A stretch of 64,000 bases of DNA. It comes from Candidatus Kaiserbacteria bacterium (GTDB lineage: Bacteria > Patescibacteriota > Minisyncoccia > Phycocordibacterales > UBA918). The notes under the pieces are model-generated. The model had not been told where the DNA came from. It did not search any database and was given only the letters and a program-made list of their open reading frames with translations. Location of the stretch: the NCBI GenBank assembly GCA_031430855.1, contig JANPCG010000012.1:496-64495 (forward strand). The letters run 5' to 3'. Positions 870 through 53,274 of the stretch are shown here, piece by piece. Both the position numbers and the translations under genes were made by a program. The first letter of the stretch is position 1, and every line of letters begins with the position of its first letter.

Positions 870-880
870 GTGGGGCTATT

Positions 881-16157: not shown

Positions 16158-16598
16158 GACACATTCCTTTCAGGGTTTCTGTAGAAAGTATACTATAGGA
16201 TTAGAAAGTGGACACGGGTTGCTAAGCATATTCGTTCGTTCTTTATTTGCATCAGGGGGTATCGGTCCCTACGAGACCAGTATAAGTAGGTTTTTTGTGG
16301 TCACGGTAAAACATAATCCCATTATGTTTTACCTAACTATAATCATTTGCTACACTCTAATTCTAGTAAGTACTCGCGACATTACCTCGCGGTTTCTGGC
16401 CCTAGGAAGGGTCCAGAAACATCGCTGTGTTTAGCACTAGAACACGTATCTGCCGCAGGGCAGGTGGTCACGGGTTACTAAGTAAAATATTTCACTCCGT
16501 TCATATTTATACTAAGTACCCTCGACCCCGCCTCGACTGTCGCAAGGCGACATGTCTCCGTCTCGCACAGACGCCACACCTGCCGCAGGGCAGGTGCT

Positions 16599-16640
16599 AA
16601 AACAAAACCACGGCTACATTCGTAGCTGTGGTTTTGTTTT
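16599..16640 (-). terminator. Long hairpin terminator downstream of tRNA-Lys
   Basis: aaaacaaaaccacggctac-att-cgtagctgtggttttgtttt, 19-bp stem. Confidence 0.6.
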
Positions 16641-16647
16641 GCGTCTG

Positions 16648-24469: not shown

Positions 24470-24472
24470 CAA

Positions 24473-24498
24473 AAAAGACCCCGAGGGGGTCTTTTTTG
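24473..24498 (+). terminator. Rho-independent terminator after rpsT
   Basis: aaaaaagacccc-gag-ggggtctttttt. Confidence 0.75.
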
Positions 24499-24644
24499 TT
24501 GAGTTAGAGGGAGATTCTTTATCCTAATGAAATTATTCCTCTAGTCTAAAATATTATCCAAAAACGAGAAGGGAGATTCGGTCGTTAACACGACCAGTAC
24601 CCCAATTGGATAGTTTACCTCGCTTCGCTCCCAAACTATCTCAA

Positions 24645-24668
24645 TCGGGCTTCGAATCTCCCTCTCTC
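24645..24668 (+). repeat. tRNA-Ser 3'-end copy (att-like), inverted relative to the tRNA-Ser gene
   Basis: cttcgaatctccctctctc is an 18-19 nt perfect reverse complement of the gagagagggagattcgaa in tRNA-Ser at 39105-39123. Confidence 0.6.
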
Positions 24669-24871
24669 GCGCAAAATACAACAAAACCCAAACAAGGCTC
24701 AAGCTTTGTTTGGGTTTTGGTATTTGCGGGCTAGGTGAGTTAAGTACCCCCATGCTCAAGCCTTGTAAGGGTATTCTAGCACTTTTAGGGTAGGTCGATT
24801 TAGGTACGTGGGTCGGGGTCTGTGTATCGGAAAGGACGGCTCTTTTGCTCAGAATGAGACAAATGAGACAC

Positions 24872-27862: not shown

Positions 27863-27880
27863 TAATGGCTCAACATGAAC

Positions 27881-28135
27881 TTATTTAATTAAGATTAAAA
27901 ACAATAGGATAAATATAGTAACGAGGACTAAAGTAGTTACTTTTAGTAAAGTCTTAATGCTGAGTAAAGTGGCAACTGATTCAATTGACTTAGACTTAAT
28001 ATCTTCGATAACATCAAACAAAGTGTCGGTTGTAAATCCTTGTGTTAAGTTACGTTCAATGTTCGAAAGTCTGCCAACATCTTCTGAGATGGATAAAAGG
28101 AGTTCTTTCTCGGTGTACTGTTCAATATTTTTCAT
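27881..28135 (-). CDS. Small protein with C-terminal TM anchor
   Basis: 84 aa with a hydrophobic C-terminus. Confidence 0.25.
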   Translation of the reverse strand: MKNIEQYTEKELLLSISEDVGRLSNIERNLTQGFTTDTLFDVIEDIKSKSIESVATLLSIKTLLKVTTLVLVTIFILLFLILIK

Positions 28136-28437
28136 AAATCTTTGGACGGATTTTGTTGATAATGCGGACTAGGCAGGTAGCAAAAAGCTCCTAACCAGGC
28201 CGACACACCCCGTGAGGTATGCCCATACCAGTTTCCCAGTATGACCGTCCAAAGTAGCTCTGATTAGGAGTTCTTTACTTTGGACAGATTTGCGACCATA
28301 TCCTCAAGCGAACTTGAGGGGTTAGGTCTATATATTCAGTTGTTCTACGATGACAATAATAGCAAAAATATCGCTATCAGTCAGTACCTTAGCTTAGATT
28401 CCGAGCCTTGCGAAGGGGTCTGTTGCCAACACCTTAT

Positions 28438-32341: not shown

Positions 32342-32345
32342 ATGT

Positions 32346-33623
32346 TTATGAGGTTATTTTGGCTGATAATGTTTCAGGTGTTCGGATGGTCCCAGTGATT
32401 AGGTTGTTGAGGAGATATCTTTTCTGTTCTTTGATGATGGACAGTTTCTTTTCCAGCTCGGTTATTTCTTTATCTGCGGTTATTAATATTTTTACAATGG
32501 CTTCTTGTTCTTCAATAGGAGGGAGTTTTAATTCAAACTTTGCCATATCCGATCCATACAGGTGAAAGACTGTGGTGCCTGAAACAAGTTTGATGACGTC
32601 TTTTTTATTTAGATTAACTAGGTAACAAAAGAAGAGTCCATTCAAACTACCATTGGATCTTATGATTAAGATATCTCCTCCTAAAATGATCCCATCTTTA
32701 TCTAGATAACTTGCTGTAGACAAACCTCGGGGAGTAACATCGGAAGTTGGCATGAGGATATCGTTTACTTTCGAAAGAACCATACCTTTATTGTAGTTTG
32801 TTTTGCTTATGATGTTCTCTATATACTCAGCGTACTTAGTAAATAGCTCTCCATAATGTATGGCTTCGTATTTTCCTTCAGAATCTAGGTCGTTCTTAGG
32901 CAAACCTTTACCTTTTTTAAATGACGCAATTTCTCCAAGTTTTACAGACTTCCACTTCTCACCAAATCCAGTTAATCGTCTTTTACCAGTTAGTAAATCC
33001 TGCATCAGACTTTTCTTGATCTGCTTTTTTACTTCAATTTTTCGCGTAAGCCTTTTAATTATCTGGTCCCAAGTTTCTATAACAGAGATAATACGACTTT
33101 GTTCTAGTAGGGGTGGGAGAGCAAGTTTGAATTTTTTAATCAACGGAATCGTCAATTGTGGCTGGGCACTGCCGAATGATACTCGCTTGAGCTCTCTTAA
33201 GAAATGAGACGAAATAAAATATTTATAGAGGAAGGCAGTCTCTAAATCAGTATCTACAGTTTTGTTTCTTAGTATTGCCATCCCAGAGTTAATCCTTACA
33301 TCAGCAAAAGGAACGTTCTCAGAATATGAAGCCACACTACCGATTGTGCCTCTGGTTGTAATCACAAGATCACCTCTTTCGAGCCTTCCTTTATTCATTG
33401 ATGAGTCCTTTGCTTTTGAAATAAATTGATTCTCACTAAAATTAAAACCTTGTTTTGTAACATTTGTGGCAGTAAGAAAAAGACAAAAACCATCAGTTGA
33501 AAAATCATCCTGATGCGGGTAGTTTTTACCCCTATCGCCGTCAATAACTTTTACCCCAACTTCCTGCAAAGTTAAATTTCTCCATCCTTGGGGTATATTT
33601 TTTTGTGATTGGTTAGTTTTCAT
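32346..33623 (-). CDS. hsdS: Type I restriction-modification specificity subunit
   Basis: Two TRDs separated by conserved LALPPLLEQ / LKLPPIEEQ coiled-coil spacers. Confidence 0.85.
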   Translation of the reverse strand: MKTNQSQKNIPQGWRNLTLQEVGVKVIDGDRGKNYPHQDDFSTDGFCLFLTATNVTKQGFNFSENQFISKAKDSSMNKGRLERGDLVITTRGTIGSVASYSENVPFADVRINSGMAILRNKTVDTDLETAFLYKYFISSHFLRELKRVSFGSAQPQLTIPLIKKFKLALPPLLEQSRIISVIETWDQIIKRLTRKIEVKKQIKKSLMQDLLTGKRRLTGFGEKWKSVKLGEIASFKKGKGLPKNDLDSEGKYEAIHYGELFTKYAEYIENIISKTNYNKGMVLSKVNDILMPTSDVTPRGLSTASYLDKDGIILGGDILIIRSNGSLNGLFFCYLVNLNKKDVIKLVSGTTVFHLYGSDMAKFELKLPPIEEQEAIVKILITADKEITELEKKLSIIKEQKRYLLNNLITGTIRTPETLSAKITS

Positions 33624-33625
33624 AA

Positions 33626-34936
33626 TTAACTCCCATTTAAAACCACATCTTGCCTAGCCTTAGCAACACAAATGTTATTCTTTATGGCATAGCACTCAAC
33701 ATAATGATTGCCAGAATATTTTGTATCCTCTATTTCATTTTTAGTTCGATTATCAGTTATTTCTCCTCTTGGCTGATCACAAGAACTATCGTTCTTAACT
33801 TTCCATTTAAAGATATTTACATCTGGAGAGTTTCCCGATATTAAGAATTTAATCTTCCTGTCTACGCTAATTAGCCCAATTTTATCTAGAATAAATTCTC
33901 TAAAACCACCCCTGCGCACTTGGACTTCTCCGCAGATCTTAAAATTGTATTGTTCTTCAAGTAAAGTTTTAATATTTTCGTCAAATATAAATTTCTCAGA
34001 CGGCGATCTCTTGTAAAAAGAAATATCTACTAGATTATCTGTAGAGTCTGAATCTCTCAGGTTTTCAAGTTTTATTAAAAAACCATCTCGAGCACAGAGT
34101 ATCTTTTCTTTCTGATCGGGTGTGAGTTTCGCTAGGTAATCATCAATAAATTTCGCACTATTTGCTCTATCTTGAATTTGATTAGGGGTATTAACAACGT
34201 TTGGTAAGTTTATAAAAAATGTAAAAATGGCATCAAAAATTTCAATGTTTGGATTTTGTTTAAATATTTTTGTAATTACTTGCTCAAGGTGAAAAGACTT
34301 GAGTTTCAAGTTTTGATCTTTATCGCATAGATTATTTTTCCATCTTTTAACAAACTTCACTGTCTTTCTAAAATCACTATTTATACCAACCTCAGTAGCA
34401 ACTTTAATGTATCCTCTAGGATCAGAGTTAATCCAAGCGTTTGTATCAGAAGCATTCCAAGTCAAAGTATTACGTTTGTTGTGGTTTCTCTCTTTAATCA
34501 CTTCCGGAACCTTATATGTATCCTGATTGAACTCATTTTTTCCGTATGAATAAGCAGGAACAATATCAACTGATAAAATCATGTCAGTGTTTTGCCAAAA
34601 CTCTACAGTAACTGAGTGTGTCTGTAGAGAAACCTTCTTCATGTAGCTTGTCGGATTTCTATAGCTACCACTTATTTCATTAAATAATTTTTGAAGTGTT
34701 GCTGAAGGTGAGTGATCATTTTCATCCCAAGAACCAAGAATATATAGAATATCCAGATCATGAATAGGTGTTATTGCTGTGAAGCGAGGATATGATCCTA
34801 TTTGAATACAGTTATTTACACCAAATAGGTCATTAAAAGACTGGTAGACTTTACCTATCAAATCTTGCTCGGTAGGTTTAGGTGAGAGTGTCTTCGCATA
34901 CTCTCGCAATTTTGAGTTGAATTTATCTTTTGTCAT
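33626..34936 (-). CDS. cGAS/DncV-like nucleotidyltransferase (CD-NTase/SMODS-type Pol-beta NTase)
   Basis: IGSYPRFTAITPIHDLDILYIL (GS-x11-DxD) and a third acidic motif SVDIVPA 52 aa later; 436 aa with a long helical C-terminus; coupled between hsdS and the 2-TM gene. Confidence 0.55.
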   Translation of the reverse strand: MTKDKFNSKLREYAKTLSPKPTEQDLIGKVYQSFNDLFGVNNCIQIGSYPRFTAITPIHDLDILYILGSWDENDHSPSATLQKLFNEISGSYRNPTSYMKKVSLQTHSVTVEFWQNTDMILSVDIVPAYSYGKNEFNQDTYKVPEVIKERNHNKRNTLTWNASDTNAWINSDPRGYIKVATEVGINSDFRKTVKFVKRWKNNLCDKDQNLKLKSFHLEQVITKIFKQNPNIEIFDAIFTFFINLPNVVNTPNQIQDRANSAKFIDDYLAKLTPDQKEKILCARDGFLIKLENLRDSDSTDNLVDISFYKRSPSEKFIFDENIKTLLEEQYNFKICGEVQVRRGGFREFILDKIGLISVDRKIKFLISGNSPDVNIFKWKVKNDSSCDQPRGEITDNRTKNEIEDTKYSGNHYVECYAIKNNICVAKARQDVVLNGS

Positions 34937-35468
34937 AACTTGTGCTCAGTAGAGTTGTCACTATGTCATTAATAAGACGACCTCGCATATTAACAATAGT
35001 AGTAAATTGCTGATTGTTTATTGCCTTCATCATTTCTGGAGAAATCACAATTGATGGGGGTGTGAACTCAGGAAAGTAAAAAATAAAACCCGCATTTGAT
35101 TTCTTGTTTGAAAGAATAGTTTTTATCTGGTCTTCAGTAAAAGACTGATAGTGTACTAACGCCAATGTAGTTTCTTTTACTTTTGACAGTGTGTCCGGTT
35201 TGATTTGGTAGATATTTTTTTCTCTAAAAACACCCGTGTCAACTAAATCTGTCTTTAACGATGAAAACATATCGTCATTAGCCACTATCGCAATTTTTCT
35301 ACTCCAACGACCAAACCCTAACCTTAAAAAGAGTGGATATACACCAAGAGTCCAACTCGTTATCGCCCAGATGAAAAGACATATAGCAAAGATCGTTGTT
35401 AGCGCTCCGACAATATTTACAAATATAGTTAAGAAATTTAGTAGAGTCATATATTTATTTAATTCCAA
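34923..35468 (-). CDS. 2-TM membrane protein with C-terminal alpha/beta domain, candidate effector partner of the NTase
   Basis: Two N-terminal TM helices (residues about 8-52) then an about 125-aa soluble domain; overlaps hsdM stop and NTase start by 14 nt each. Confidence 0.45.
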   Translation of the reverse strand: MELNKYMTLLNFLTIFVNIVGALTTIFAICLFIWAITSWTLGVYPLFLRLGFGRWSRKIAIVANDDMFSSLKTDLVDTGVFREKNIYQIKPDTLSKVKETTLALVHYQSFTEDQIKTILSNKKSNAGFIFYFPEFTPPSIVISPEMMKAINNQQFTTIVNMRGRLINDIVTTLLSTSYDKR

Positions 35469-36963
35469 GTTCTTTTAGATAAACAGCCATTTGTTTTTCA
35501 AGCTTCTGTAGCTCTGGTTCAAGTTCTGCAAGTTCTTTCAGGTTCGCAGTAATATCTACAGGGGCTTCTTCGGTGAAAGTATCTACGTAACGAGTGATGT
35601 TGAGGTTGAAATCGTTCTCCTCAATCTCTTTAAGACTCACTTTGCGAGCAAACTTTGCTACATCTTTACGAGTCTTGTAGGTAGAGTAAATCTTCTCGAT
35701 GTTTTCATCGGTCAGAATGTTCTGAGCCTTATTTGCCTTGAACTCCTTAGATGCTTCGATAAAGAAGACATCTTTCTTGCTTTCATTCTCTCCGCCTTTT
35801 TCTCGCGAACGGTCTAAGACGAGAATTGCTACTGGAATACCTGTGGTCTGGAATAGTCCGGCTGGGAGCCCAATAACTGCTTCGACGACGTTTTCCTTTA
35901 GAAGTTGTTCACGGATTTTACCCTCGGCTCCACCTCGAAAGAGAACACCATGAGGAACAATAACGGCAATGCGCCCTGTCTTTGGTTTTGCTGTTTCCAC
36001 CATGTGCGTGATAAAGGCAAAGTCACCTTTATCCTTCGGTGGAGTACCACGCCAGAAGCGCTTGTACTTGTCTGCATCCGCATGTTCCGCACCCCATTTC
36101 TTGAGAGAGAATGGTGGGTTCGATACTACCGTGTCGAACTTCATTAGACGATCGTCTTCAACGAGAAGTGGATTGTTGAGTGTGTCACCCCATTCCAGAC
36201 GAGCAGAATCCTTTCCGTGGAGGAACATATTCATGCGAGCAAGTTGATAGGTTGAACCTGTTGATTCCTGACCATACAGAGCGTAGTTTTTAGAGCCTTG
36301 TTTCTCTACTTCTTCACCAGCAAGGAGGAGGAGACCACCCGATCCGGCACAAGGGTCACAGATACGTGCGCCAGGCTTTGGTTCGGCAAGCCGTGCTACG
36401 AGATGAGCTACATTGCGAACGGTAAAAAATTCACCAGCTTTTTTACCTGCGTCTGCACCAAACTTCTCAATCAGGTACATGTAAGAGTTACCGATGATAT
36501 CGTCATTTACTCCTGTGAGATCAATCTTTGCAAAATCTTGTACGAGGTTGCGGAGCATCTTGTTACGCTCAGCAAGTTTGCCGAGGTTTGCTTCTGAGTT
36601 GAAGTCTACAGAAAATACACCATCAAGCTTTTCCTTGTTATGGTCTTCAATACGATGGAGTGCCTTGTTTATTTCTTCACCAAGGTTGTCTTGTTCGATG
36701 ATTGAGTAAATGTAATCAAACGATGACTTCGGAGGGAGGTAGAAGCGATCCAGCTTCATTTTTTCCTCGATACGCTTTTCGTCGCCAGCGAACCGCTTTT
36801 TGTATTCGTCGTGTGCTGTCTTTGATTTATCACTAAGATACTTCAAGAAAAGCATCGGAAGTACGTAGTTCATGTAGTCCGCCGCATTGAGCTGACTGCG
36901 TGAAGAGTTTGCCGAATCCCAAAGGGTCTTATTGAGGTCTTCCTGAGTGTATTTCTTAGTCAT
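35455..36963 (-). CDS. hsdM: Type I R-M N6-adenine DNA methyltransferase subunit
   Basis: Motif I DPCAGSGGLL and motif IV NPPF. Confidence 0.9.
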   Translation of the reverse strand: MTKKYTQEDLNKTLWDSANSSRSQLNAADYMNYVLPMLFLKYLSDKSKTAHDEYKKRFAGDEKRIEEKMKLDRFYLPPKSSFDYIYSIIEQDNLGEEINKALHRIEDHNKEKLDGVFSVDFNSEANLGKLAERNKMLRNLVQDFAKIDLTGVNDDIIGNSYMYLIEKFGADAGKKAGEFFTVRNVAHLVARLAEPKPGARICDPCAGSGGLLLLAGEEVEKQGSKNYALYGQESTGSTYQLARMNMFLHGKDSARLEWGDTLNNPLLVEDDRLMKFDTVVSNPPFSLKKWGAEHADADKYKRFWRGTPPKDKGDFAFITHMVETAKPKTGRIAVIVPHGVLFRGGAEGKIREQLLKENVVEAVIGLPAGLFQTTGIPVAILVLDRSREKGGENESKKDVFFIEASKEFKANKAQNILTDENIEKIYSTYKTRKDVAKFARKVSLKEIEENDFNLNITRYVDTFTEEAPVDITANLKELAELEPELQKLEKQMAVYLKELGIK

Positions 36964-36964
36964 A

Positions 36965-37567
36965 TTATTGGTTAATTAAATTAAAGCTGGCGTTGATAAT
37001 GGTTTTTTGGATCTCTTGCTTTCGTTTGTGTATTCGTTCTTGGTCGGTGATGTTTTCCTGAAGGGCTATGATCGACTTCTGTGTATGTACTGGCGGTAGG
37101 GGTATTTCAAAGTCGTTGAGGTTTTTTACGAGGATGCTCTGTATGTATGAGGCACCTGTAACTATTTGCGATAGTGCCTTTTGTCCGTCTGTTGAATTGA
37201 GATAAAGACAGACATACTTAGGTAGCGCAGTGACGTCTTTGATTCGAATGACATGAACCGATGATGATGGCATCACACGCATCTCATTTGAGGCAAAGAC
37301 AGCAGAGCGAAACGAACCAGCTCCTGAGCCTCTTGAAACAAGCAAAATATCGTTATACTGCAAAAAGTAGGGGGTTCTGAGTGATTTACCTGAAAACAGG
37401 GTCAGATCGCCCGTTTCAACCACTTCTTGATTCGGAGAGATATTCTTGGCTTGGAGCACGAAGATGTCGCCTTTAGGGTCATTTTCAATCGGTCCACGGA
37501 ACGTGTACCCAGAAGATATGTCTGCTATTTGGCTCAATTCCTTGTGCATGTATGGAGTGTACTGCAC
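36965..37567 (-). CDS. Half-size HsdS-like specificity protein (single TRD)
   Basis: 200 aa with one TRD plus conserved IPLPPVHTQKSIIALQ spacer; 1 nt upstream of hsdM. Confidence 0.6.
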   Translation of the reverse strand: MQYTPYMHKELSQIADISSGYTFRGPIENDPKGDIFVLQAKNISPNQEVVETGDLTLFSGKSLRTPYFLQYNDILLVSRGSGAGSFRSAVFASNEMRVMPSSSVHVIRIKDVTALPKYVCLYLNSTDGQKALSQIVTGASYIQSILVKNLNDFEIPLPPVHTQKSIIALQENITDQERIHKRKQEIQKTIINASFNLINQ

Positions 37568-37657
37568 TTATTGTAAAAAAGCAAATTCTGGTCAATTTGG
37601 CAACCTACATGAGTCGCACTGGACTCTTTAGGCGTTCGGCGTCATTGATGTGTTTGT

Positions 37658-38986
37658 ATGAATCAAGCAATATCAATGCCATACGGCACCAAAATACAGG
37701 AGGTAGTACCCGTAAAGGTGAAATACTGCCTTTACGCAAGAAAATCAACGGAATCAGAAGAACGCCAAGTTCTCTCTATAGATAGCCAGATTAAGGAGAT
37801 GCTCCAGCTGGCAGACCGAGAGTGCTTGGAGGTGGTGACAATGAAGCGAGAAAGTCACTCCGCGAAGGAGACTGGGCAACGACCAGTCTTTAACGAAATA
37901 GTCGAAGAGATAGGAGAAGGTAAATACAATGGAATTCTGACATGGGCACCAGACCGTATCAGCAGAAATGCCGGCGACCTTGGGAGAATTGTAGACTTAA
38001 TGGACTCAGGCAAGCTCGAAGAAATACGCACCTTCGGGCAGAAGTTCGGCAATAATCCAAACGAGAAGTTCCTGCTGATGATTTTGGGATCACAGGCAAA
38101 ACTCGAGAATGACAACCGCGGTATCAATGTGAAGCGAGGTTTGAGAACAAGAGCTGAGATGGGACTATGGTCGGGACAAGCTCCCTTAGGTTATCTAACC
38201 CAAGGGCTAATGGATAAGAAATGCCAGCTGATTATTGACCCACTCCGAGCATCAGCAGTGAAGCAGATGTTTGAAAAAGTAGCCTACGAACAATGGTCAG
38301 GACGCAAGGTATACAACTGGCTCCGCTTCGAGCTCAACTTCTATACAAGAGGAAATAAACCTCTCACCCTCGGAGGTGTGTACCGCATCCTAGAAAACCC
38401 TTTCTACTACGGCGTCTTCGAGCGACCACGTAAAAGTGGAAACTGGTATCAAGGTAAACATACGCCACTCATCACACAGGAGTTATTCGAGAAATCAAAA
38501 GCCCAGCTCAAGCGTGATCAGATAGTGCGTGAGACTAAAGAATTTGCCTTCACGAAACTTTTCACCTGCGGATACTGTGGATCAGGTATATCAGCTGAAG
38601 AGAAATGGAAACAACTCAAGGATGGTGGAGCAAATAGATACATATACTACTCCTGCTCACGAGCGCGAGACCGCAACTGCAAGAACATGTATATCCGCGA
38701 AGAAGATTTAATACTAGAACTCCTGAAGATATTGGATAAGGTAAATATCAATGAGCTTGGTATGAGGCAGAAGCTTGAGGATGAAATTGCACGGTTCAAT
38801 ATTTTCCAACGGTCGGTACTTGGAGCCAAAGAAAAGATAAAAACAGATGCAGATACTGATATACGAAACTACGCAAAGTACATACTGAAAGAAGGTACGA
38901 CGATTGAGAAACGTGAACTACTGGCGAACTTACGATCACGGATAATGTACAAAGATAAAACGCTCACCTTGATAGATGAGCGTTAA
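37658..38986 (+). CDS. Large serine recombinase (integrase/resolvase family)
   Basis: Catalytic YARKSTESEE..SIDSQ N-terminal domain, recombinase domain and C-terminal zinc ribbon (CGYCG..CSRARDRNC); likely start at MPYGTK (37676). Confidence 0.85.
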   Translation: MNQAISMPYGTKIQEVVPVKVKYCLYARKSTESEERQVLSIDSQIKEMLQLADRECLEVVTMKRESHSAKETGQRPVFNEIVEEIGEGKYNGILTWAPDRISRNAGDLGRIVDLMDSGKLEEIRTFGQKFGNNPNEKFLLMILGSQAKLENDNRGINVKRGLRTRAEMGLWSGQAPLGYLTQGLMDKKCQLIIDPLRASAVKQMFEKVAYEQWSGRKVYNWLRFELNFYTRGNKPLTLGGVYRILENPFYYGVFERPRKSGNWYQGKHTPLITQELFEKSKAQLKRDQIVRETKEFAFTKLFTCGYCGSGISAEEKWKQLKDGGANRYIYYSCSRARDRNCKNMYIREEDLILELLKILDKVNINELGMRQKLEDEIARFNIFQRSVLGAKEKIKTDADTDIRNYAKYILKEGTTIEKRELLANLRSRIMYKDKTLTLIDER

Positions 38987-39096
38987 ATCATAAAAGTTCG
39001 GTATCTCACGTACCTCAAGCTAAGTGGGTCAAAAGACTCGCTTAATTTTTTGGCTTGAAATAAGGGTACTCGGGTCACACCGATACTTAGTTCTAT

Positions 39097-39186
39097 TGGC
39101 GGAGAGAGGGAGATTCGAACTCCCGAGGAGGTTTCCCCCCTGACAGTTTTCAAGACTGTTCCATTCAACCGCTCTGGCATCTCTCC
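39097..39186 (-). tRNA. tRNA-Ser (anticodon UGA), type II with long variable arm, CCA encoded
   Basis: Reverse complement GGAGAGATGCCAGAGCGGTTGAATGG...CAGTCTTGAAAACTG...GGGAGTTCGAATCTCCCTCTCTCCGCCA folds as a class II tRNA. Confidence 0.85.
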
Positions 39187-39275
39187 AAATATGTAATTTT
39201 CTGCCGTCCGTTAGGAACAGATACTAGCAAATAATGGTGAAAATGTATACAGCTCTCATGCTACAATAATTCGTA

Positions 39276-39746
39276 ATGGATTCAATTGCACGCAGTGTGA
39301 CTTGGGATGCTCCTGAGCATCATCATATTGAAAAAGGGGGGGATTGGTTTTTCTCGCTTTTAATTATTACTATTGCGGTCGTTATTGCTGCCGTTTTCTT
39401 TAGTAATCTGTTATTTGCAATTTTGTGTGGTGTGGGTGGGGGAGTGCTCGCTATTGCTGCGAGTAAGCGACCAAAAATAATCCCCTATGCAGTGACTGTA
39501 CGAGGGATTCGGATTGGTGAAGCGTTGTACCCATATACCACCCTTCGATCGTGGCACATTGATGAAGATAATCCTCGTGGTCCTCAGCTCCTTGTGCTAT
39601 CAAAGAAGTACTTCATGCCCCTTTTGGTGCTCCCTATTCCCGAAGAGTATGTTGATGATATCGAAGATATTATTGCCGAACGCCTGGGCGAAGAATTTAT
39701 TGAAGAAACGTTCTTCAATATGTTTATGGAATTTCTCGGTTTTTAA
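39276..39746 (+). CDS. Hypothetical 2-TM membrane protein
   Basis: 156 aa; two TM helices then an acidic C-terminus. Confidence 0.35.
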   Translation: MDSIARSVTWDAPEHHHIEKGGDWFFSLLIITIAVVIAAVFFSNLLFAILCGVGGGVLAIAASKRPKIIPYAVTVRGIRIGEALYPYTTLRSWHIDEDNPRGPQLLVLSKKYFMPLLVLPIPEEYVDDIEDIIAERLGEEFIEETFFNMFMEFLGF

Positions 39747-39818
39747 TTAAAGAGAATCAAGTGACAGTCATAAAGCTCTGTGGTATTATCGCAGCACTCT
39801 GAAAAAGAGTAACAGACT

Positions 39819-39890
39819 GCTCTCATAGTTTAATGGATAGAATGCCAGTTTGCGGAATTGGCGATTCAGGTTCGATTCCTGGTGAGAGCA
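39819..39890 (+). tRNA. tRNA-Arg (anticodon reads GCG in my fold; unusual, uncertain)
   Basis: Acceptor GCTCTCA/TGAGAGC, T-arm TCAGG-TTCGATT-CCTGG, anticodon loop TTGCGGA; D-stem has two G-T wobbles. Confidence 0.55.
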
Positions 39891-40100
39891 CGAGTACAAA
39901 AATGAGCACCCTTCTGGGGTGCCATTTTTGTTCGTGCTCTCACAGAAACTGTGCCTGCGCACAGTTGCGACAGGAATCGAAAGTCGGAGTCATGTCGCTT
40001 TAGCGACAGACGAGACAGGGTCGTGAGTGACATAATTTTAGGGAGTGAAACGACCATAAAATTAGTCGACTCCTGACCGAACTTCCTGGTGAGAGCGGGT
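39884..40100 (+). repeat. About 210-bp tRNA-associated repeat, copy A, ending in a tRNA 3'-end copy
   Basis: About 85% identical to 40782-41000; begins in the tRNA-Arg 3' end and ends with cttcctggtgagagc. Confidence 0.7.
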
Positions 40101-40324
40101 CGAGAGTACTCAGTAACTCGTGACCGATTCCGCACGTGTACAATAAAACCTGGGAGGCTTTAGGACAAAAATCGAAGCCCGATTGAGCCCGTTTGTGAAC
40201 TGAAAGCGAAACAAAATAACAATTGGGTACACTGTTCATGTAATGAAAGTTCTCTAGCGAAGACACAGTCTAGCGAGACCTACTGAGAGGCTTAAACACC
40301 TTATAAACATAAATAATTCAATTT

Positions 40325-40618
40325 ATGAAGAAACACGTCATATTTTTCTCACTCCTATTATTTATAGCAATAGGAACACTATTGATTGTCCAAAATCAGC
40401 AAAATGTTGCAGGAAAACAAGAAAATCAATGCCTTGCTTCAGGTGGAGGGTGGGCGCCTTACTGGGATCAGATAGACTGTAATGGAAACAAACTTTTATC
40501 AAATTCTGATTTAGTTAATAGAGATAAGACATGTTGGTGCCATTCGCTAAACACGTGCTGGAACGGTACTGACTGCGTTTCTCGAGAGAGCAGTACACAA
40601 CCGTCCGAAAAAAATTGA
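40325..40618 (+). CDS. Small secreted Cys-rich protein (bacteriocin-like?)
   Basis: Signal peptide MKKHVIFFSLLLFIAIGTLLIV plus an about 70-aa mature part with 6 Cys; sits between the two repeat copies. Confidence 0.4.
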   Translation: MKKHVIFFSLLLFIAIGTLLIVQNQQNVAGKQENQCLASGGGWAPYWDQIDCNGNKLLSNSDLVNRDKTCWCHSLNTCWNGTDCVSRESSTQPSEKN

Positions 40619-40781
40619 GTCAGCATCACTTGCTCTACTAGCCACTTCTCAAAACTCCTAGGTTGTACGATATGTCTGGCTTACTCCATTAATAGATCCT
40701 ACTGACAGACCTTATTAAATGCTGGCCTGATTAGCTTAAAGACTCCTACAGGGCTTGATGAAAGATTTTTCCAGCCCGAGA

Positions 40782-41000
40782 GAGAGCACAAGCACAAAAA
40801 TGAGCACCCCTTAAAAAGGGTGCTATTTTCATTCGTGCTCTCACAGTAATTGTGCCTACGCACAGGTACGTCAGGAATCGAAAGTCGGAGTGATGTGAGT
40901 TTATGAACAAGTGAGACAGGGTCGTGAGCGACATATTTTTAAAGAGCGAAGCGATTATGAAAATAGTCGACTCCTGGCCGATTCCTGGCGACAGAACTGC
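40782..41000 (+). repeat. About 210-bp tRNA-associated repeat, copy B
   Basis: Homologous to 39884-40100; ends with gattcctggcgacag (a degenerate tRNA 3' end). Confidence 0.7.
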
Positions 41001-41121
41001 AAGGTATCCTTATCTCCTACACGAGTGAGTACAAGAATCTAATGTGAGATATAAAAAATGGACTGACATCGCACGAAGCGATGTCAGTCCAGCTACACAA
41101 GCGCCAGGTTTGCAACGGGTA

Positions 41122-41862
41122 TCAGACGTGCGCCACGCTCCGCAGGATGTGTCCTGCCGCAGTGGTTTTGCGATCGAGGCGAGTCAAGTCATGCAGCTGC
41201 ATCTTGATCGATGGACCCATCGATTGAGGTAGGCCGAAGTGGAGCAAGAAGTTCTGACCAAGACCGTGTCGCAAAAACGACTCGGTTTCTTCGGCAATTA
41301 CTTCTGGTTTGTCGCCCATACCTGCCCGAATCACACACTCTGGCATCTCTGCCATTTGACAGCTGCAGCCACAGCCGTGACCCAGAATACGCCCGGTCGC
41401 CACGTTGATGGTCGTTTGTACATCGAAGTACAGGCGACTGCAGAGCGGCAATGCATGAAGCATCGAGTCTGCAATTTGCCAGTTCATGGCGTCGGGGAGT
41501 AGATGTTCGATTTCAGGAATCCGCTCCTCAACCGTCGGATCTTCACGGGTGCCAAGAAATGCCAACGTAGCATAGAACTGTCTCGGCAGCCGGTCGTGGA
41601 AGCGCTGGAAGATGTGTTTCATTGCACCCAAATATTCCGTCTTTAGCCGAAACAGTGGGTCTCTCAGGCGGGGCTGATATTCATCGAAAGTAAAGCTCGA
41701 AACCCCGAGGTATCCAGCCGCGAACCGTTCCGCGATTTCTTGCCCCAGTCTGCACTGGTGCATGGTGTGCATATGCTCCATGAAGCCTTGCAGTGAAGCG
41801 ATGAGATCGGGATAGAAACCGTCCTGCTTGAGGATTTCAAGCGAGGGAGTTGTATGGGGCAT
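41122..41862 (-). CDS. Hypothetical protein with GHGCGCSC Cys cluster in a GC-rich (about 55%) block
   Basis: 246 aa ORF; strong compositional contrast with its flanks. Confidence 0.4.
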   Translation of the reverse strand: MPHTTPSLEILKQDGFYPDLIASLQGFMEHMHTMHQCRLGQEIAERFAAGYLGVSSFTFDEYQPRLRDPLFRLKTEYLGAMKHIFQRFHDRLPRQFYATLAFLGTREDPTVEERIPEIEHLLPDAMNWQIADSMLHALPLCSRLYFDVQTTINVATGRILGHGCGCSCQMAEMPECVIRAGMGDKPEVIAEETESFLRHGLGQNFLLHFGLPQSMGPSIKMQLHDLTRLDRKTTAAGHILRSVAHV

Positions 41863-41942: not shown

Positions 41943-42784
41943 TTAATGATGAGCAAACTTGTGATTGCGTGTAAATTTCATTCTGGTACGAACTAATCGA
42001 TTGTTGTTATTTAATGTCTGAGCTACGGTAACTATTTCTTCAAGCTCGTCTTGCCACTCTAATACTGTTCCCGAAGGGTTTCTTTGTACATTATTACTCT
42101 CTGGTAGATACACTACTGGAGTAATTCCTAATTCTTTCTCAATGAAATCTTTGTCCTCGCTATCACTAATTTTGTTGCCAACAAATAAATATGGTGTTTG
42201 ATAAAAGTCCATCAGTCCAGCAATCTGTTTGGCGGTTTTAATGCTGTGAAGGGATGGTTCGCAGACAATTACTCCAATATCAATACCCGTTACTATTCCT
42301 GTTGTAACACCATCCGCTCCTGCTTTTTCATCAACGACGACCACTTCATTTTCCTGAAGAGTTAAAAGCGGCAAGTACACCTTGAGTGCCGTGGACAAAC
42401 TGTGACTACATGCCTTGCCATATAAAACAGTATCAGTTTGGGGGCCGGCTGCCATTAAGTACATAGTAGTATTTATTTTTTTGTATATTGGGTAGTTATT
42501 ATATCTGCAGGAGAAAGAGAAAATTGTGCAGTAATATCAACCAAAAATGCTTCTGAATACTTACTGCTGTCCGGCAAATTAATAAACGTTTGCATATCTT
42601 TCAGGCTTCCACCGATATACTTCATTTCTGGCAACTGCCCATTACAAAGATTGTATGAGAGGTCCATATTATGGTCGGCATCGACAGCTAAAACAGTTTT
42701 CCCCTGAGTATGAAAAAAAAGCGCCATCTGTGTTGCCGCTGATGATTTTCCGCTGCCTCCTTTACCTAAAAATCCAATAATCAT
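41943..42784 (-). pseudogene. CooC/MinD/ParA-family P-loop ATPase, split by a stop and frameshift
   Basis: 42473-42784 encodes a Walker A KGGSGKSS N-terminus; a stop and a 2-nt frame offset precede 41943-42464, which encodes the CooC-like C-terminus. Confidence 0.45.
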
Positions 42785-46996: not shown

Positions 46997-47118
46997 GAAA
47001 AAGAAAAATAGAATTAAAGTTTGTGCCATAGACCAGAACGCTCTCGTGTGTCTGGTTGGTCATTTGTGTCCAGGCAAGGAATCTAACATTATCTGTTCAG
47101 TACAGGTTGTCGATATTG

Positions 47119-47190
47119 TGCCTCCGCTAGGAATCGAACCTAGAATAACGGCTTAGAAGTCCGCAGTTATATCCATTTAACTACAAAGGC
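47119..47190 (-). tRNA. tRNA-Arg (anticodon UCU)
   Basis: Reverse complement GCCTTTGTAGTTAAATGGATATAACTGCGGACTTCTAAGCCGTTATTCTAGGTTCGATTCCTAGCGGAGGCA; anticodon loop CTTCTAA. Confidence 0.75.
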
Positions 47191-48229: not shown

Positions 48230-48411
48230 CGTTACGTCTTTCAAGTCTCTACGCAAATGATTTTCTGTGGTCACGAGTTACTCAATATTCAATTGATTGA
48301 GGGCTCGGTCACAGATAATTTTCTTCGAAAATTTCTGTGACCACGACTCGCTCGTAAACATCGCTGCGTCTTTCGAGCCCCTACGCAAGCAACGCAGGTT
48401 GCTTGCTCATC

Positions 48412-48459
48412 GCGCACAAATGCAAAAACCGCCTGATGGCGGTTTTTGCATTTGTGCGC
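48412..48459 (-). terminator. Long perfect hairpin terminator abutting the tRNA-Val 3' end
   Basis: gcgcacaaatgcaaaaaccgcc-tgat-ggcggtttttgcatttgtgcgc. Confidence 0.7.
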
Positions 48460-48527
48460 GATGAGGGGCTCGAACCCCCGACCTTTTCAGTGTAAATGAA
48501 CTGCTCTACCAACTGAGCTAATCGCGC
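48455..48527 (-). tRNA. tRNA-Val (anticodon UAC)
   Basis: Reverse complement GCGCGATTAGCTCAGTTGGTAGAGCAGTTCATTTACACTGAAAAGGTCGGGGGTTCGAGCCCCTCATCGCGCA. Confidence 0.85.
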
Positions 48528-52908: not shown

Positions 52909-52916
52909 CACGAGCG

Positions 52917-52960
52917 AAAATTAAAATCACTAGTCTTTTAAAAGACTAGTGATTTTAATT
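52917..52960 (+). terminator. Long hairpin after tRNA-Leu
   Basis: ttaaaatcactagtctttt-aa-aagactagtgattttaa; a second hairpin follows at 52962-52985. Confidence 0.65.
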
Positions 52961-53274
52961 TAGTACCTGCCTTGCGGCAGGTACGGCGCTTGTGTGAACC
53001 GCAGCGATGTTTCTTTTTCACCCAGAAAAAGAAACCGCGAGGTGGGGTCGAGAACACTTGGTAGATTAGGAGCAAAGCGAACTAATATACCTAGTGATTC
53101 GTGACCAAGAAATAAATCTATCACAGAAACTTGACCCAAAGCGAAAAATTAAAGTTAGTAACTCGTGACCAATAGAAACATATTTCCATCCCAAACAATC
53201 CCCAAGTAAATGTAAAGCTAACTTGACATTAGCCACTGCTCATATATTCTAGGTTTATAACCTAATTATTTTAT

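What the first reader, a model, noticed from the sequence alone, without database searches (positions are those of the whole stretch)
39819..41000. tRNA-Arg locus followed by two about 210-bp direct repeats, each bounded by copies of the tRNA 3' end
The repeats at 39884-40100 and 40782-41000 are about 85% identical, strongly structured (several perfect hairpins), and each ends in cctggtgagagc-like sequence, the 3' end of the adjacent tRNA. Three tRNA-3'-end copies in a row is the scar pattern of serial site-specific integrations. The units are too small to encode a recombinase, so they may be miniature, trans-mobilised cassettes or a structured sRNA family.
Basis: seen in the sequence. Interest (0 to 1): 0.65.

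Follow-up and report, generated by a model that had tools for sequence, protein, structure and literature searches.

The report
Structured mini-cassettes inserted behind tRNA genes
The two repeats are copies of an apparently undescribed family of about 200-base non-coding cassettes that sit directly behind tRNA genes in Kaiserbacteria-like bacteria, and each cassette carries both a sense and an antisense copy of the end of its own tRNA, so it looks like a small mobile element that recognises its target by sequence.

Summary
tRNA-Arg(GCG) lies at 39819-39891. Unit A (39891-40096) and unit B (40790-40995) are 82-85% identical. Unit A ends in an exact 14-nt copy of the tRNA 3' end. Unit B ends in a decayed copy.

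Each unit starts with a terminator hairpin. It then carries a 20-nt antisense copy of the tRNA's last 20 nt, split by a small hairpin, followed by a conserved scaffold and the sense copy.

The same scaffold occurs in about 16 other metagenomic loci. It always lies behind a tRNA (Arg-GCG, Arg-CCT, Arg-TCT or His), and its sense and antisense blocks match the local tRNA. Fourteen copies give strong covariation: 41 pairs, 96.7% paired, 12 pairs with compensatory changes. An invariant G·U pair places the structure on the tRNA-sense strand.

Related cassette types follow Ser, Val, Leu and Phe tRNAs. Five of the six tRNAs in the window have a cassette or a remnant behind them, and the displaced cassette of the sixth (tRNA-Ser) lies beyond an inserted island. 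In a census of 49 tRNA loci, 34 have the antisense block downstream, against 0 of 45 upstream controls.

No Rfam family matches, and no recombinase is consistently nearby.

Best reading: these are trans-mobilised insertion cassettes whose single strand folds into a mimic of the target site. The enzyme and the active form (RNA or ssDNA) remain unknown.

The parts
39761..39789 (+). Promoter-like site upstream of tRNA-Arg (GTGACA, 17-nt spacer, TATTAT, with TG before the second hexamer).
   Evidence: It is the only sigma-70-like match in 39200-41300. No promoter is predicted for the units themselves.
39819..39891 (+). tRNA-Arg (anticodon GCG). Its last 20 nt (39871-39890, TTCGATTCCTGGTGAGAGCA) are the left sense copy, S_L.
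39891..39934 (+). Unit A, hp1: a hairpin directly after the tRNA. Its core (39906-39922 plus a T-run) looks like an intrinsic terminator on both strands.
   Evidence: (I1, I2).
39935..39943 (+). Unit A, aA: TGCTCTCAC, the antisense of the acceptor 3' strand plus discriminator (9 of 9 Watson-Crick).
39944..39970 (+). Unit A, P2: a small hairpin (CTGTGC-CTGC-GCACAG) inserted exactly between the two antisense blocks. This is where the D and anticodon domain leaves the acceptor/T helix in a real tRNA.
   Evidence: (the gap is 24-31 nt or 0 across loci).
39971..39981 (+). Unit A, aT: CAGGAATCGAA, the antisense of the T-loop plus T-stem 3' strand (11 of 11).
   Evidence: (I10).
39982..40082 (+). Unit A scaffold. 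It holds a variable hairpin (39991-40009), an invariant strand GAGACAGGGTCGTGAG (40012-40027) and a long hairpin, 'module H' (40018-40078), whose apex is GA-NN-GNA-NN-GA.
   Evidence: (covariation).
40083..40096 (+). Unit A, S_R: an exact sense copy of the tRNA 3' end (TTCCTGGTGAGAGC). In the fold of the excised unit it pairs with aA and aT.
   Evidence: (D4).
40097..40135 (+). Truncated cassette: a short module H (GGGTCGAGAGTACTCAGTAACTCGTGACC) followed by an att remnant (GATTCCGCAC).
   Evidence: A longer version occupies the same position in L030 and also occurs in L014.
40147..40254 (+). Decayed type-3 cassette, with the P2 hairpin AACCTGGGAGGCTTTAGG, AATCGAA-GCCCGATTGAG and CAATTGGGTAC.
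   Evidence: Comparison by eye with the intact type-3 units in L020, L032 and L043. Coordinates.
40325..40618 (+). A 97-aa ORF between the cassettes. It has an N-terminal hydrophobic segment, six Cys residues and no Pfam match. It may be cargo or a remnant of another insertion.
40769..40995 (+). Unit B, the second type-1 cassette. Its parts are: left boundary 40769-40789; hp1 40790-40835; aA 40836-40844; P2 40845-40871; aT 40872-40882; scaffold and module H 40883-40981; degenerate sense copy 40982-40995.
   Evidence: An orthologous copy, including the left boundary, is in L016.
48269..48453 (-). Cassette behind tRNA-Val (tRNA at 48454-48527). Parts: hp1 48453-48418; aA GTGCGCGATGAG 48417-48406; P2 48405-48386; aT CGTAGGGGCTCGAA 48385-48372; scaffold 48371-48307; partial sense copy 48306-48295.
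24471..24726 (-). Type-3 cassette that belongs to tRNA-Ser (39097-39186). It is now separated from the tRNA by a 14.4-kb island. It carries a contiguous 18-nt antisense block GAGAGAGGGAGATTCGAA (24668-24651), a scaffold at 24650-24580 and sense copies at 24579-24565 and 24517-24501.
16299..16642 (-). Trailer of tRNA-Lys (16647-16720). It has a terminator hairpin, a P2-like hairpin, a variable hairpin, module H at 16529-16466 and a second module ending at 16299.
52917..53170 (+). Trailer of tRNA-Leu (52827-52909). It has a terminator hairpin, a P2-like hairpin (52965-52982), module H at 53044-53106 and a second module tail at 53153-53170.
47066..47112 (-). Remnant of the 3' end of a type-2 cassette directly behind tRNA-Arg(TCT) (47118-47190): GACAACCTGTACTGAACAGATAATGTTAGATTCC.
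   Evidence: compared with the type-2 units in L015 and L030.

Best explanation
Units A and B are two copies of one type ('type 1') of a family of non-coding cassettes, about 170-210 bp long, that are inserted immediately behind tRNA genes in Kaiserbacteria-like (Parcubacteria/CPR) bacteria.

A cassette has four parts, in this order:
1. A terminator hairpin (hp1), which ends the tRNA transcript.
2. A perfect antisense copy of the tRNA's last ~20 nt. This covers the acceptor 3' strand plus discriminator and the T-stem 3' strand plus T-loop. It is often split by a small hairpin (P2) exactly at the acceptor/T junction.
3. A conserved scaffold.
4. A sense copy of the tRNA 3' end.

On the strand with the tRNA's polarity the antisense block pairs with a sense copy. 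The unit therefore folds into a branched rod whose central helix reproduces, in hairpin form, the duplex of the tRNA gene's 3' end (equivalently, the acceptor/T helix of the tRNA).

Shown: the anatomy; the matching of the sense and antisense blocks to whichever tRNA lies upstream; covariation on the tRNA-sense strand; the spread of one scaffold type across unrelated tRNAs; and variable arrays, decayed copies and unoccupied tRNAs.

Inferred: cassettes are mobilised in trans. The folded single strand (more likely ssDNA than RNA) is the recombination site, which a recombinase encoded elsewhere pairs with the tRNA gene. Insertion is Campbell-type, in the manner of integron attC sites or the folded attP of CTXphi. 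It rebuilds the tRNA, supplies a new terminator and pushes older cassettes away from the tRNA, where they decay.

My split of belief: about 0.85 that these are evolutionarily mobile, tRNA-end-specific insertion cassettes; about 0.35-0.4 that the folded single-strand att route is the mechanism. The confidence given for this explanation (0.5) is for the statement taken as a whole.
For: (1) Family and target matching. Two collection scans found the type-1 unit in 16 further loci. The genome scan used an aT-plus-scaffold pattern, and the metagenome scan used a pattern from the scaffold alone. In every locus that contains a tRNA, the unit lies on the same strand downstream of it: Arg-GCG, Arg-CCT, Arg-TCT or His. 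The right-end copy equals the local tRNA 3' end: GGTGAGAGC, GGCGAGAGC, GGCGAGGGC, GGTCGGGGC or GTAGCCGCC.

(2) Antisense block. In 24 or more loci, covering Arg (three isoacceptors), His, Leu, Val and Phe, a 9-nt and an 11-nt antisense block lie 27-50 nt behind the tRNA. Totals are 432 Watson-Crick pairs, 12 G·U pairs and 16 mismatches. The gap between the blocks is either 0 or 24-31 nt. T-loop variants are mirrored: TTCGACT in L033, TTCAATT in L017 and TTCGAGC in tRNA-Val.

(3) Census. An antisense match of 8 nt or more is present downstream in 34 of 49 tRNA loci, against 0 of 45 upstream controls. A sense copy of 11 nt or more is present in 22 of 49, against 0 of 45.

(4) Structure. There are 41 pairs with 96.7% of cells paired (29-38% when partners are slid). 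Twelve pairs and 44 cells carry double-sided changes, matched by 0 of 500 shuffles. An invariant G·U pair (columns 114/166) and U·G pairs would be A·C mismatches on the other strand.

(5) Fold of the excised unit. Unit A cut out of its context folds with antisense paired to sense, both as DNA (z = -8.9) and as RNA (z = -7.6).

(6) Mobility. The type-1 scaffold is nearly identical behind His and Arg tRNAs (2 differences in about 66 nt between L023 and unit B). Type 3 lies behind both Ser and Arg, and type 2 behind Arg-GCG, Arg-CCT, Arg-TCT and Ser. Orthologous tRNA-Arg loci, between the 156-aa gene and RuvX, carry different cassette types and numbers. L039-41 and L044 have only a plain terminator. 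Copies further from the tRNA are more degenerate.

(7) Points favouring DNA over RNA. Each cassette starts with an intrinsic-terminator-like hairpin, and no promoter is predicted for it. The central helix also pairs T-loop bases, which are paired in the gene but not in a tRNA. The apex GCGAAGC is the classic very stable DNA mini-hairpin; that last point rests on my own knowledge and was not tested.
Against: - No recombinase is associated with the cassettes. The only one in the 64-kb window is a large serine recombinase inside an island that is absent from the same strain's contig L001, where the cassettes are identical.
- No excised circle, empty/filled pair with identical flanks, or autonomous relative was found. 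The L043/L044 pair turned out to be confounded by an inversion.
- The scaffold, with its invariant 16-nt strand, is more elaborate than any known folded att site.
- P2 sits exactly where a tRNA's D and anticodon domain would emerge. That argues for RNA-level tRNA mimicry.
- It is unexplained how a cassette acquires a new matching antisense block when it moves to a different tRNA.
- Orientation relative to replication shows no lagging-strand bias. Only 2 of 6 cassettes in the window lie on the lagging-strand template, judged from the dnaA/dnaN position and GC skew.
Confidence: 0.5

Rival explanations
1. The unit is a functional tRNA-like non-coding RNA. Read-through transcripts from the tRNA promoter fold so that the antisense block and the sense copy form an acceptor/T minihelix carrying the neighbouring tRNA's own acceptor sequence. 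RNase P would then cut 5' of the antisense block, RNase Z would cut after the discriminator, and CCA might be added. The released RNA of about 165 nt would act as a decoy, tag or regulator. Its spread between tRNAs would be secondary, by duplication and recombination.
For: The structure lies on the transcribed-sense strand, with G·U pairs and strong covariation. P2 sits exactly at the acceptor/T junction, mirroring tRNA topology. The sense copy keeps the discriminator base, and in the His-linked units the G-1:C73 pair as well. RnpA is encoded in the window, so classical RNase P is present. tRNA promoters are strong, so terminator read-through could still yield appreciable RNA (inference).
Against: Every unit begins with a good intrinsic terminator, and no promoter of its own is predicted. 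Many cassettes have lost the sense copy yet keep a perfect antisense block (34 against 22 of 49 loci), so the minihelix is not the best-conserved feature. The helix also pairs T-loop bases, unlike a tRNA. Decayed and truncated copies and unoccupied tRNAs fit a dispensable element. There is no match to any Rfam family, including tRNA-like ones.
Confidence: 0.2
2. The units are ordinary scars. Larger integrative elements with tyrosine (or serine) integrases repeatedly entered the tRNA 3' end through double-stranded att sites and were later deleted, leaving att copies and a conserved att-flanking arm.
For: Direct repeats that run from the T-loop to just past the tRNA end, and tandem accretion, are the classic signature of tRNA-targeting integrases (established knowledge). 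A real 14.4-kb island with a large serine recombinase sits exactly at the 3' end of tRNA-Ser in the window, and similar islands occur in L043 and L046/47.
Against: The same complete unit of about 200 nt, with the same internal order, recurs in more than 20 loci without any larger element or integrase. Independent deletions would not leave identical remnants. Strand-specific covariation and the perfect internal antisense copy are not expected for a double-stranded att arm. The serine-recombinase island has only an imperfect junction repeat of about 9 nt and ends that do not resemble the cassettes.
Confidence: 0.1
3. The cassettes move as single-stranded DNA in the manner of IS200/IS605 elements or REP/REPIN sequences. 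A Y1 (HUH) transposase encoded elsewhere would bind the hairpins. The antisense block would act as an extended 'guide' that base-pairs with the cleavage or target sequence (the tRNA 3' end), as the tetranucleotide guides of IS608 do.
For: The unit has hairpin-rich ends. It carries an internal sequence complementary both to the target and to its own right-end copy. It is small and non-autonomous, and its structure is strand-specific.
Against: IS200/IS605 insertions create no duplication, whereas 14-22-nt repeats flank these units. No Y1 transposase or TnpB is present among the 70 window ORFs or the neighbouring ORFs tested. There is no lagging-strand orientation bias (2 of 6). The hp1 sequence varies with the locus rather than with the cassette type, so it is not a conserved transposase-binding site.
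Confidence: 0.08
4. The cassettes spread through an RNA intermediate, as a retroelement-like, SINE-like parasite. The antisense block would act as a primer-binding site for the tRNA 3' end, and the terminal sense copies as repeats for strand transfer. Alternatively, the tRNA-like 3' end would be the start site for a reverse transcriptase, as in the Neurospora Mauriceville retroplasmid, which integrates at tRNA 3' ends.
For: The layout formally resembles R-PBS...R. The repeat length of 14-22 nt is typical of target-primed reverse transcription. The 3' end is tRNA-like.
Against: No reverse transcriptase was found in the window or the flanks. The antisense block follows the genomic trailer rather than CCA, as the sequences show. 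There is no poly-A or other retro signature.
Confidence: 0.05

Closest known systems
Integron attC sites and gene-cassette arrays
   Same: Both are small units arranged in arrays at one fixed site. In both, an inverse copy at the start pairs with the direct copy at the end on one specific strand, giving a folded recombination site with a one-sided extrahelical element. Structure is conserved more than sequence. Some units carry small promoter-less ORFs (the 97-aa ORF here and a HAD hydrolase in L017).
   Different: The RYYYAAC/GTTRRRY core sites are absent, and no IntI gene is nearby. The paired arms here are 20 nt and copy a tRNA gene end. The middle part is a conserved scaffold rather than a variable loop, and every unit carries a terminator.
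The folded attP(+) hairpin of CTXphi and other IMEX elements (XerCD, dif)
   Same: In both, two inverted att halves in one strand fold into a hairpin that mimics the double-stranded chromosomal target. There is a bulge at the centre, and tandem arrays form at the target.
   Different: The target here is a tRNA gene end, not dif. There is no phage genome, and the unit is only about 200 nt. Involvement of a Xer-type enzyme is pure inference.
tRNA-targeting integrative elements, and non-autonomous derivatives that accumulate in tandem (CIME-type accretion)
   Same: Both have direct repeats equal to the tRNA 3' end (from the T-loop to just past the acceptor). Both rebuild an intact tRNA, form tandem arrays and depend on mobilisation in trans.
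   Different: These units have no integrase anywhere in the array and are 10-100 times smaller. They have an internal antisense copy and a covarying single-strand structure. They occupy most tRNAs of the genome rather than one.
IS200/IS605 elements, REP/REPIN sequences and their RAYT transposases
   Same: Both are miniature, hairpin-rich, strand-specific, non-autonomous repeats in intergenic DNA. In both, an internal guide could recognise the target by base pairing.
   Different: These units are flanked by long direct repeats. No Y1 transposase was found and there is no replication-strand bias. The guide is 20 nt rather than 4.
tRNA-like structures (mascRNA, viral TLS, the tRNA-like domain of tmRNA, the 3' end of the Mauriceville retroplasmid)
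   Same: The ends of the unit form an acceptor/T-type helix with the discriminator base. A hairpin sits where the rest of the tRNA would branch off.
   Different: ARAGORN and Rfam do not call it. T-loop bases are paired and the loop is replaced by a scaffold of about 100 nt. The acceptor sequence copies whichever tRNA lies upstream.

Membership tests
Any Rfam 15 family | A covariance-model match at or near the family's gathering score | tested here: not met
   In 39700-41200 at E up to 10, only chance-level hits to eukaryotic or viral families appear, far below their thresholds. Across the whole window at E up to 0.05, nothing falls in any tRNA trailer.
tRNA / tmRNA gene | Cloverleaf, or tRNA-like domain plus tag reading frame, detected by ARAGORN | tested here: not met
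   ARAGORN calls only the six true tRNAs in the window and nothing inside the units. The same holds in the other loci.
Group I intron in a tRNA gene | P3-P9 catalytic core; a 5' exon ending in U paired with G; an intron ending in G | tested here: not met
   There is no Intron_gpI hit even at E up to 10. The unit lies behind an already complete tRNA. Because the flanks are direct repeats, the same position would have to be U at one splice site and G at the other (inference). The Patescibacteria tRNA introns described in bioRxiv 10.1101/2025.07.03.662931 lie in the anticodon loop.
Integron gene cassette / attC | A single-strand fold in which an inverse core pairs with the core site | tested here: met
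   The antisense block pairs with the sense copy in folds of the excised unit. Covariation is strand-specific. This is an analogy of architecture only.
Integron gene cassette / attC | RYYYAAC ... GTTRRRY core sequences, and an IntI integrase with attI next to the array | tested here: not met
   The unit ends are tRNA-derived (TTCCTGGTGAGAGC and its complement), as searches show. No tyrosine recombinase was found among the window ORFs or the flanking ORFs of other loci that were tested.
tRNA-targeting integrase element | Direct repeats identical to the 3' part of the target tRNA, with an intact tRNA at one junction | tested here: met
   Exact repeats of 14-24 nt are present in the window, L015, L020, L023, L024, L028, L031, L032, L033 and L043.
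tRNA-targeting integrase element | An integrase gene inside the element | tested here: not met
   The units are 170-210 bp and hold no conserved ORF. Indels between copies break the reading frames.
IS200/IS605, REP/RAYT | No target duplication; a Y1 transposase in the genome neighbourhood; the active strand on the lagging-strand template | tested here: not met
   Repeats of 14-22 nt flank the units. No Y1_Tnp or OrfB match was found in the 70 window ORFs. Only 2 of 6 window cassettes lie on the lagging-strand template. The rest of the genome could not be searched.
MITE | Terminal inverted repeats and a short target-site duplication | tested here: not met
   The left end (CGAGTACAAAAATG...) and the right end (...GACTCCTGACCGAAC) are not inverted repeats of each other. 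The flanking repeat is 14-22 nt and equals the tRNA end.
Diversity-generating retroelement (TR/VR pair) | Two repeats that differ at adenines only, a reverse transcriptase nearby, and the VR inside a gene | tested here: not met
   Differences between units A and B include G/A, C/T, A/T and indels, and many are compensatory within helices. No reverse transcriptase was found, and both copies are non-coding.
Large-serine-recombinase island | An element carrying the recombinase, inserted at a fixed site with a 2-bp crossover | tested here: inconclusive
   A genuine island of this kind (24730-39093) lies at the tRNA-Ser 3' end. However, the cassettes are identical in L001, which lacks the island. 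A role for this enzyme in cassette movement is therefore neither supported nor excluded.

The most novel reading that the evidence does not exclude
The cassettes are a new class of sequence-programmed insertion element. On this reading the internal 20-nt antisense block acts as a guide that selects the target (the 3' end of a particular tRNA gene) by base pairing, in a folded single strand or in an RNA. A compact enzyme encoded elsewhere, not yet identified, carries out insertion. Retargeting to another tRNA happens by replacing the guide. This would be a natural, guide-directed DNA insertion system whose guide and cargo lie on the same 200-nt molecule. It would be distinct from integrons, IS110 bridge RNAs, CRISPR-associated transposons and IS605.
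Probability: 0.2. Interest if true: 0.92.

Novelty: new variant of a known kind. Interest (0 to 1): 0.76.

Why it matters
If these are trans-mobilised cassettes that recognise tRNA gene ends through a 20-nt internal complement, they are a compact natural example of target choice by base pairing in DNA insertion. They occur in the poorly studied CPR bacteria.

They also appear to shape these very small genomes. They occupy the flank of most tRNA genes, break metagenome assemblies there, supply the tRNA terminators, sit next to landing sites of defence islands, and lie at the ends of at least one inversion.

Even on the most conservative reading, this is a widespread, strongly covarying structured element family of about 200 nt that is absent from Rfam. 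It also gives a concrete handle for finding the responsible enzyme by phylogenetic profiling.

Tried and rejected
- **Rfam.** Gathering and permissive scans of the region and of the whole window found no family.
- **tmRNA or a second tRNA with an intron.** ARAGORN is negative, and the unit's 5' part has no D or anticodon arm.
- **Group I intron.** There is no model hit, the repeats are incompatible with the splice-site rules, and the published Patescibacteria tRNA introns lie at position 35/36.
- **DGR template/variable repeat pair.** The differences are not adenine-specific.
- **MITE.** There are no terminal inverted repeats.
- **Coding potential.** ORFs of 40-89 aa overlap the units on both strands, but indels and compensatory changes argue against coding.
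- **Viral origin.** Three patterns gave 0 hits in IMG/VR.
- **The neighbouring large serine recombinase as the cassette enzyme.** Its island is absent from L001, which has identical cassettes.
- **L043/L044 as a clean filled/empty pair.** I first read them that way. I withdrew this after finding that the tRNA-Ser..tRNA-Arg segment is inverted between them and the flanks differ.
- **Fold-back copying at the native terminator as the origin of the antisense block.** This is unlikely, because in L043 hp1 came with the cassette while a different terminator lies beyond the sense copy. P2 also interrupts the copy at a fixed place.
- **Literature.** Seven completed full-text searches found no description of such tRNA-flank cassettes. 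One further search failed on a syntax error.
- **Module H census.** 19 of 21 matches to a loose regex for the module H hairpin lie within 700 nt behind a tRNA. This is biased, because many loci were fetched by a pattern that contains module H.
Full report
**1. The observation**

ARAGORN and Rfam place tRNA-Arg (anticodon GCG) at 39819-39891 on the + strand. Two direct repeats follow it. The pair 39917-40080 and 40818-40981 is 82% identical without gaps. The aligned units average 85% identity.

TTCCTGGTGAGAGC occurs exactly at the tRNA end (39876-39889) and again at 40083-40096. A third copy at 40982-40995 matches 11 of 14 bases. Both units fold far better than shuffled sequence, with z = -8.4 and -5.9. 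Only two of the three 'tRNA-end copies' are exact.

**2. Anatomy**

For unit A:

- tRNA 3' end S_L: 39871-39890, TTCGATTCCTGGTGAGAGCA.
- Hairpin hp1: 39891-39934. Its core is an intrinsic-terminator-like stem with an A-tract and a T-tract.
- aA: 39935-39943, TGCTCTCAC, the reverse complement of the acceptor 3' strand plus discriminator.
- Small hairpin P2: 39944-39970.
- aT: 39971-39981, CAGGAATCGAA, the reverse complement of the T-loop and T-stem 3' strand.
- Scaffold: 39982-40082.
- Sense copy S_R: 40083-40096.

Unit B (40790-40995) has the same order. When unit A is cut out and folded alone, aA and aT pair with S_R, and P2 branches off between them. This holds with DNA parameters (-56.1 kcal/mol, z = -8.9) and RNA parameters (-92.8 kcal/mol, z = -7.6).

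Between the two units lie three further features:

- A truncated cassette at 40097-40135.
- A decayed cassette of another type at 40147-40254.
- A 97-aa ORF for a small Cys-rich protein with a hydrophobic N-terminus and no Pfam match, at 40325-40618.

**3. The organism**

A LOOT RNA and the titles of related genome records (Candidatus Kaiserbacteria) place the window in the Parcubacteria (CPR). The window starts at the replication origin region: yidC, rnpA, dnaA and dnaN at 141-4485.

**4. Relatives elsewhere**

A two-block pattern (aT plus scaffold) found three loci in the genome collection. A pattern taken from the scaffold alone found 15 loci in metagenomes, of which two are chance hits in high-GC coding DNA.

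In every real hit that contains a tRNA, the unit lies on the same strand a short way behind it. The tRNAs are Arg-GCG, Arg-CCT, Arg-TCT and His-GTG. The right-end copy equals the local tRNA end, and the antisense blocks match it too. Examples are GGCGGCTAT...TCGGGAATCGAA behind tRNA-His in L018 and GTCCCGG...CAGGAATCGAA behind tRNA-Arg-TCT in L024. The scaffold stays constant.

Several loci carry tandem arrays that mix the window's type 1 with two other types built to the same plan. Type 2 is in L015, L030 and L033. Type 3 is in L020, L032 and L043.

**5. Structure**

Fourteen distinct type-1 units were aligned (A2). RNAalifold predicts 41 pairs. Of all cells, 96.7% are paired, against 90.4 ± 0.6% in column shuffles and 29-38% when partners are slid. 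Twelve pairs and 44 cells carry double-sided changes, matched by 0 of 500 shuffles.

An invariant G·U pair and several U·G pairs would be A·C mismatches on the opposite strand. The structured strand is therefore the one with the tRNA's polarity.

The scaffold contains a variable hairpin, an invariant strand GAGACAGGGUCGUGAG, and a long hairpin ('module H': GGUCG-N-GAG...CUC-N-UGACC). The apex of module H is a two-pair stem with a GNA loop between tandem G·A pairs. It covaries: GT/AC, GC/GC and AC/GT.

No Rfam family matches any part.

**6. It is general to tRNAs in this clade**

In the window, cassettes or their remnants follow tRNA-Val, tRNA-Lys, tRNA-Leu and tRNA-Arg-TCT. The cassette of tRNA-Ser lies 14.4 kb away, because an island has been inserted between them.

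- An exact antisense match of 8 nt or more to the tRNA's last 24 nt occurs within 450 nt downstream in 34 loci. It occurs in 0 of 45 upstream controls.
- A sense copy of 11 nt or more occurs in 22 loci, against 0 of 45 controls.

A pairing-aware search gives 432 Watson-Crick pairs, 12 G·U pairs and 16 mismatches over the two antisense blocks. The gap between the blocks is either 0 or 24-31 nt, the latter being P2. tRNA variants are mirrored: TTCGACT in L033, TTCAATT in L017 and TTCGAGC in tRNA-Val.

The same grammar holds in more distant relatives, whose marker protein is only 56-60% identical.

**7. Evidence for mobility**

- (a) One scaffold type sits behind unrelated tRNAs at very high identity. 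L023 (His) and unit B differ at 2 of about 66 scaffold positions.
- (b) Orthologous tRNA-Arg-GCG loci, flanked by the same 156-aa gene and RuvX, carry different cassette types and numbers. The window has type 1, a truncated unit, a decayed type 3, an ORF and another type 1. L032 has one type 3. L033 has type 2 plus a truncated repeat. L048 has two other units.
- (c) L039-41 and L044 have only a plain terminator behind the same tRNA.
- (d) Sense copies further from the tRNA are more degenerate. This fits insertion next to the tRNA, with older units pushed outward.
- (e) Modules reassort. L028 combines the hp1 and P2 of a type-3 unit with a type-1 scaffold.

A caution is needed. I first took L043 (occupied) and L044 (empty) as a clean pair. 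In fact the 775-bp tRNA-Ser..tRNA-Arg segment is inverted between them and the flanks differ. No isogenic filled/empty pair is in hand.

**8. What moves them**

Pfam scans of all 70 window ORFs of 90 aa or more, and of ORFs next to cassettes in other loci, found no tyrosine recombinase, Y1/HUH transposase, TnpB, IS110-type enzyme or reverse transcriptase.

The only recombinase is a large serine recombinase (37658-38986). It lies inside a 14.4-kb island (24730-39093) inserted exactly at the tRNA-Ser 3' end. The island is absent from the same strain's contig L001, where the tRNA-Arg cassettes are identical. The enzyme must therefore act in trans from elsewhere, or the cassettes spread by host recombination.

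**9. Mechanism**

The three copies of target information (S_L, the antisense block and S_R) are most simply explained as follows. The free form has one sense and one antisense copy, which pair to give a rod with hp1 at one end and the scaffold at the other. Campbell-type recombination between its sense copy and the tRNA gene's 3' end then yields S_L-hp1-antisense-scaffold-S_R. This rebuilds the tRNA and gives it a terminator.

This is the logic of folded attC sites and of the CTXphi attP hairpin, and I take it as the leading model at about 0.35-0.4.

Points favouring a DNA form:
- A terminator stands at the head of each unit, and no promoter is predicted for the unit.
- T-loop bases are paired in the helix.
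- The apex has the sequence of a very stable DNA mini-hairpin (from my own knowledge, not tested).

Points favouring an RNA form:
- P2 is placed exactly at the acceptor/T junction.
- The discriminator is retained, and for His the G-1:C73 pair as well.
- The scaffold is elaborate.

Replication-strand orientation gives no help (2 of 6 on the lagging-strand template). How a cassette gains a new matching antisense block on moving to another tRNA is unexplained.

**10. Comparison with known systems**

The family shares the att-repeat signature and tandem accretion of tRNA-targeting integrative elements. It shares the folded inverse-core/core architecture of attC sites and the CTXphi attP. It shares the miniature, hairpin-rich, guide-like character of IS200/IS605 elements and REPINs. 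It shares the acceptor/T mimicry of tRNA-like RNAs.

It fails at least one defining test for each. There is no integrase, no attC core consensus, flanking repeats are present, there is no Y1 enzyme, and no tRNA or Rfam call is made. Seven completed full-text literature searches found no description of it.

**11. Verdict**

This is a real, widespread and apparently undescribed family of structured cassettes that insert at tRNA gene ends. I classify it as a new variant of a known kind (site-specific insertion cassettes at tRNA genes). I give roughly one chance in five that it is a genuinely new, guide-programmed insertion system.

Noticed in passing
window 24730-39093: A 14.4-kb defence-type island is inserted exactly at the 3' end of tRNA-Ser(TGA), at the junction CCGCCA|ATA, between the tRNA and its own cassette. 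It carries a ParB-methylase, an HTH protein, a LOOT RNA, a YgjP-like peptidase, type I R-M genes (HsdR, two HsdS, HsdM), a SMODS/AGS_C nucleotidyltransferase and a large serine recombinase. It is absent from the same-strain contig L001. Similar recombinase islands lie next to tRNA-Ser in L043 and L046/47. The island end motif AAGTATCGGNGTGACCC is shared with L043.
   Followed up: partly
window 28202-28328 (-): A LOOT RNA (Rfam RF03000, 74 bits) lies inside the island, between the HTH gene and the YgjP-like gene.
   Followed up: no
window 40268-40285, 40699-40716, 40740-40757; island end about 24753-24772; L016: A motif CCTAC(T/A)G..GGCTT flanks the 97-aa ORF and resembles the left end of the serine-recombinase island (TACCCTTACAAGGCTTGAGC). 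It also resembles the sequence to the left of the unit-B orthologue in L016. The ORF segment may be the remnant of a small island of the same kind, inserted between cassettes.
   Followed up: partly
L043 against L044: The 775-bp segment from tRNA-Ser to tRNA-Arg is inverted between two sister assemblies (97.5% identical). The breakpoints lie just outside the two divergent tRNAs. The cassettes behind oppositely oriented tRNAs are inverted repeats and could mediate such inversions.
   Followed up: partly
L003, L004, L011, L013, L046 and others: Many metagenome contigs end inside hp1 or a cassette. L004 shows a fold-back artefact, and L046 has a run of N inside a cassette. The cassettes evidently break short-read assemblies at tRNA genes.
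   Followed up: no
window 41943-42784 (-): A ParA/CbiA-like gene is split into ORFs of 173 aa and 103 aa in the window, in L002 and in L010. It is intact (280 aa) in L001, L009 and L011. This is a frameshift polymorphism or a pseudogene.
   Followed up: no
window 39819-39891 and all related loci: The tRNA-Arg that decodes CGN has a genomically encoded GCG anticodon, not the ACG (inosine) type usual in bacteria. This is consistent across the clade.
   Followed up: no
window 141-4485: yidC, rnpA, dnaA and dnaN are present, so the window begins at the chromosomal replication origin region.
   Followed up: no
L016 5788-6570 and 7366-7977; L017 6140-6787: An IS3-type (rve) transposase and a DUF3800 protein lie upstream of the L016 cassette. 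In L017 a HAD-hydrolase gene sits between cassettes and is bounded by tRNA-His-end-like sequences, so it may be cassette cargo.
   Followed up: partly
L017 about 5735-5765 (-): A perfect palindrome GTACTGAAC-CTGTAAG-GTTCAGTAC lies inside one cassette. In type-2 and type-3 units the same left half is joined to the tRNA T-loop sequence (GTACTGAAC-N7-GTTCGATTCC). This looks like an intact site next to a hybrid recombination site, or like a T-arm-like hairpin.
   Followed up: no
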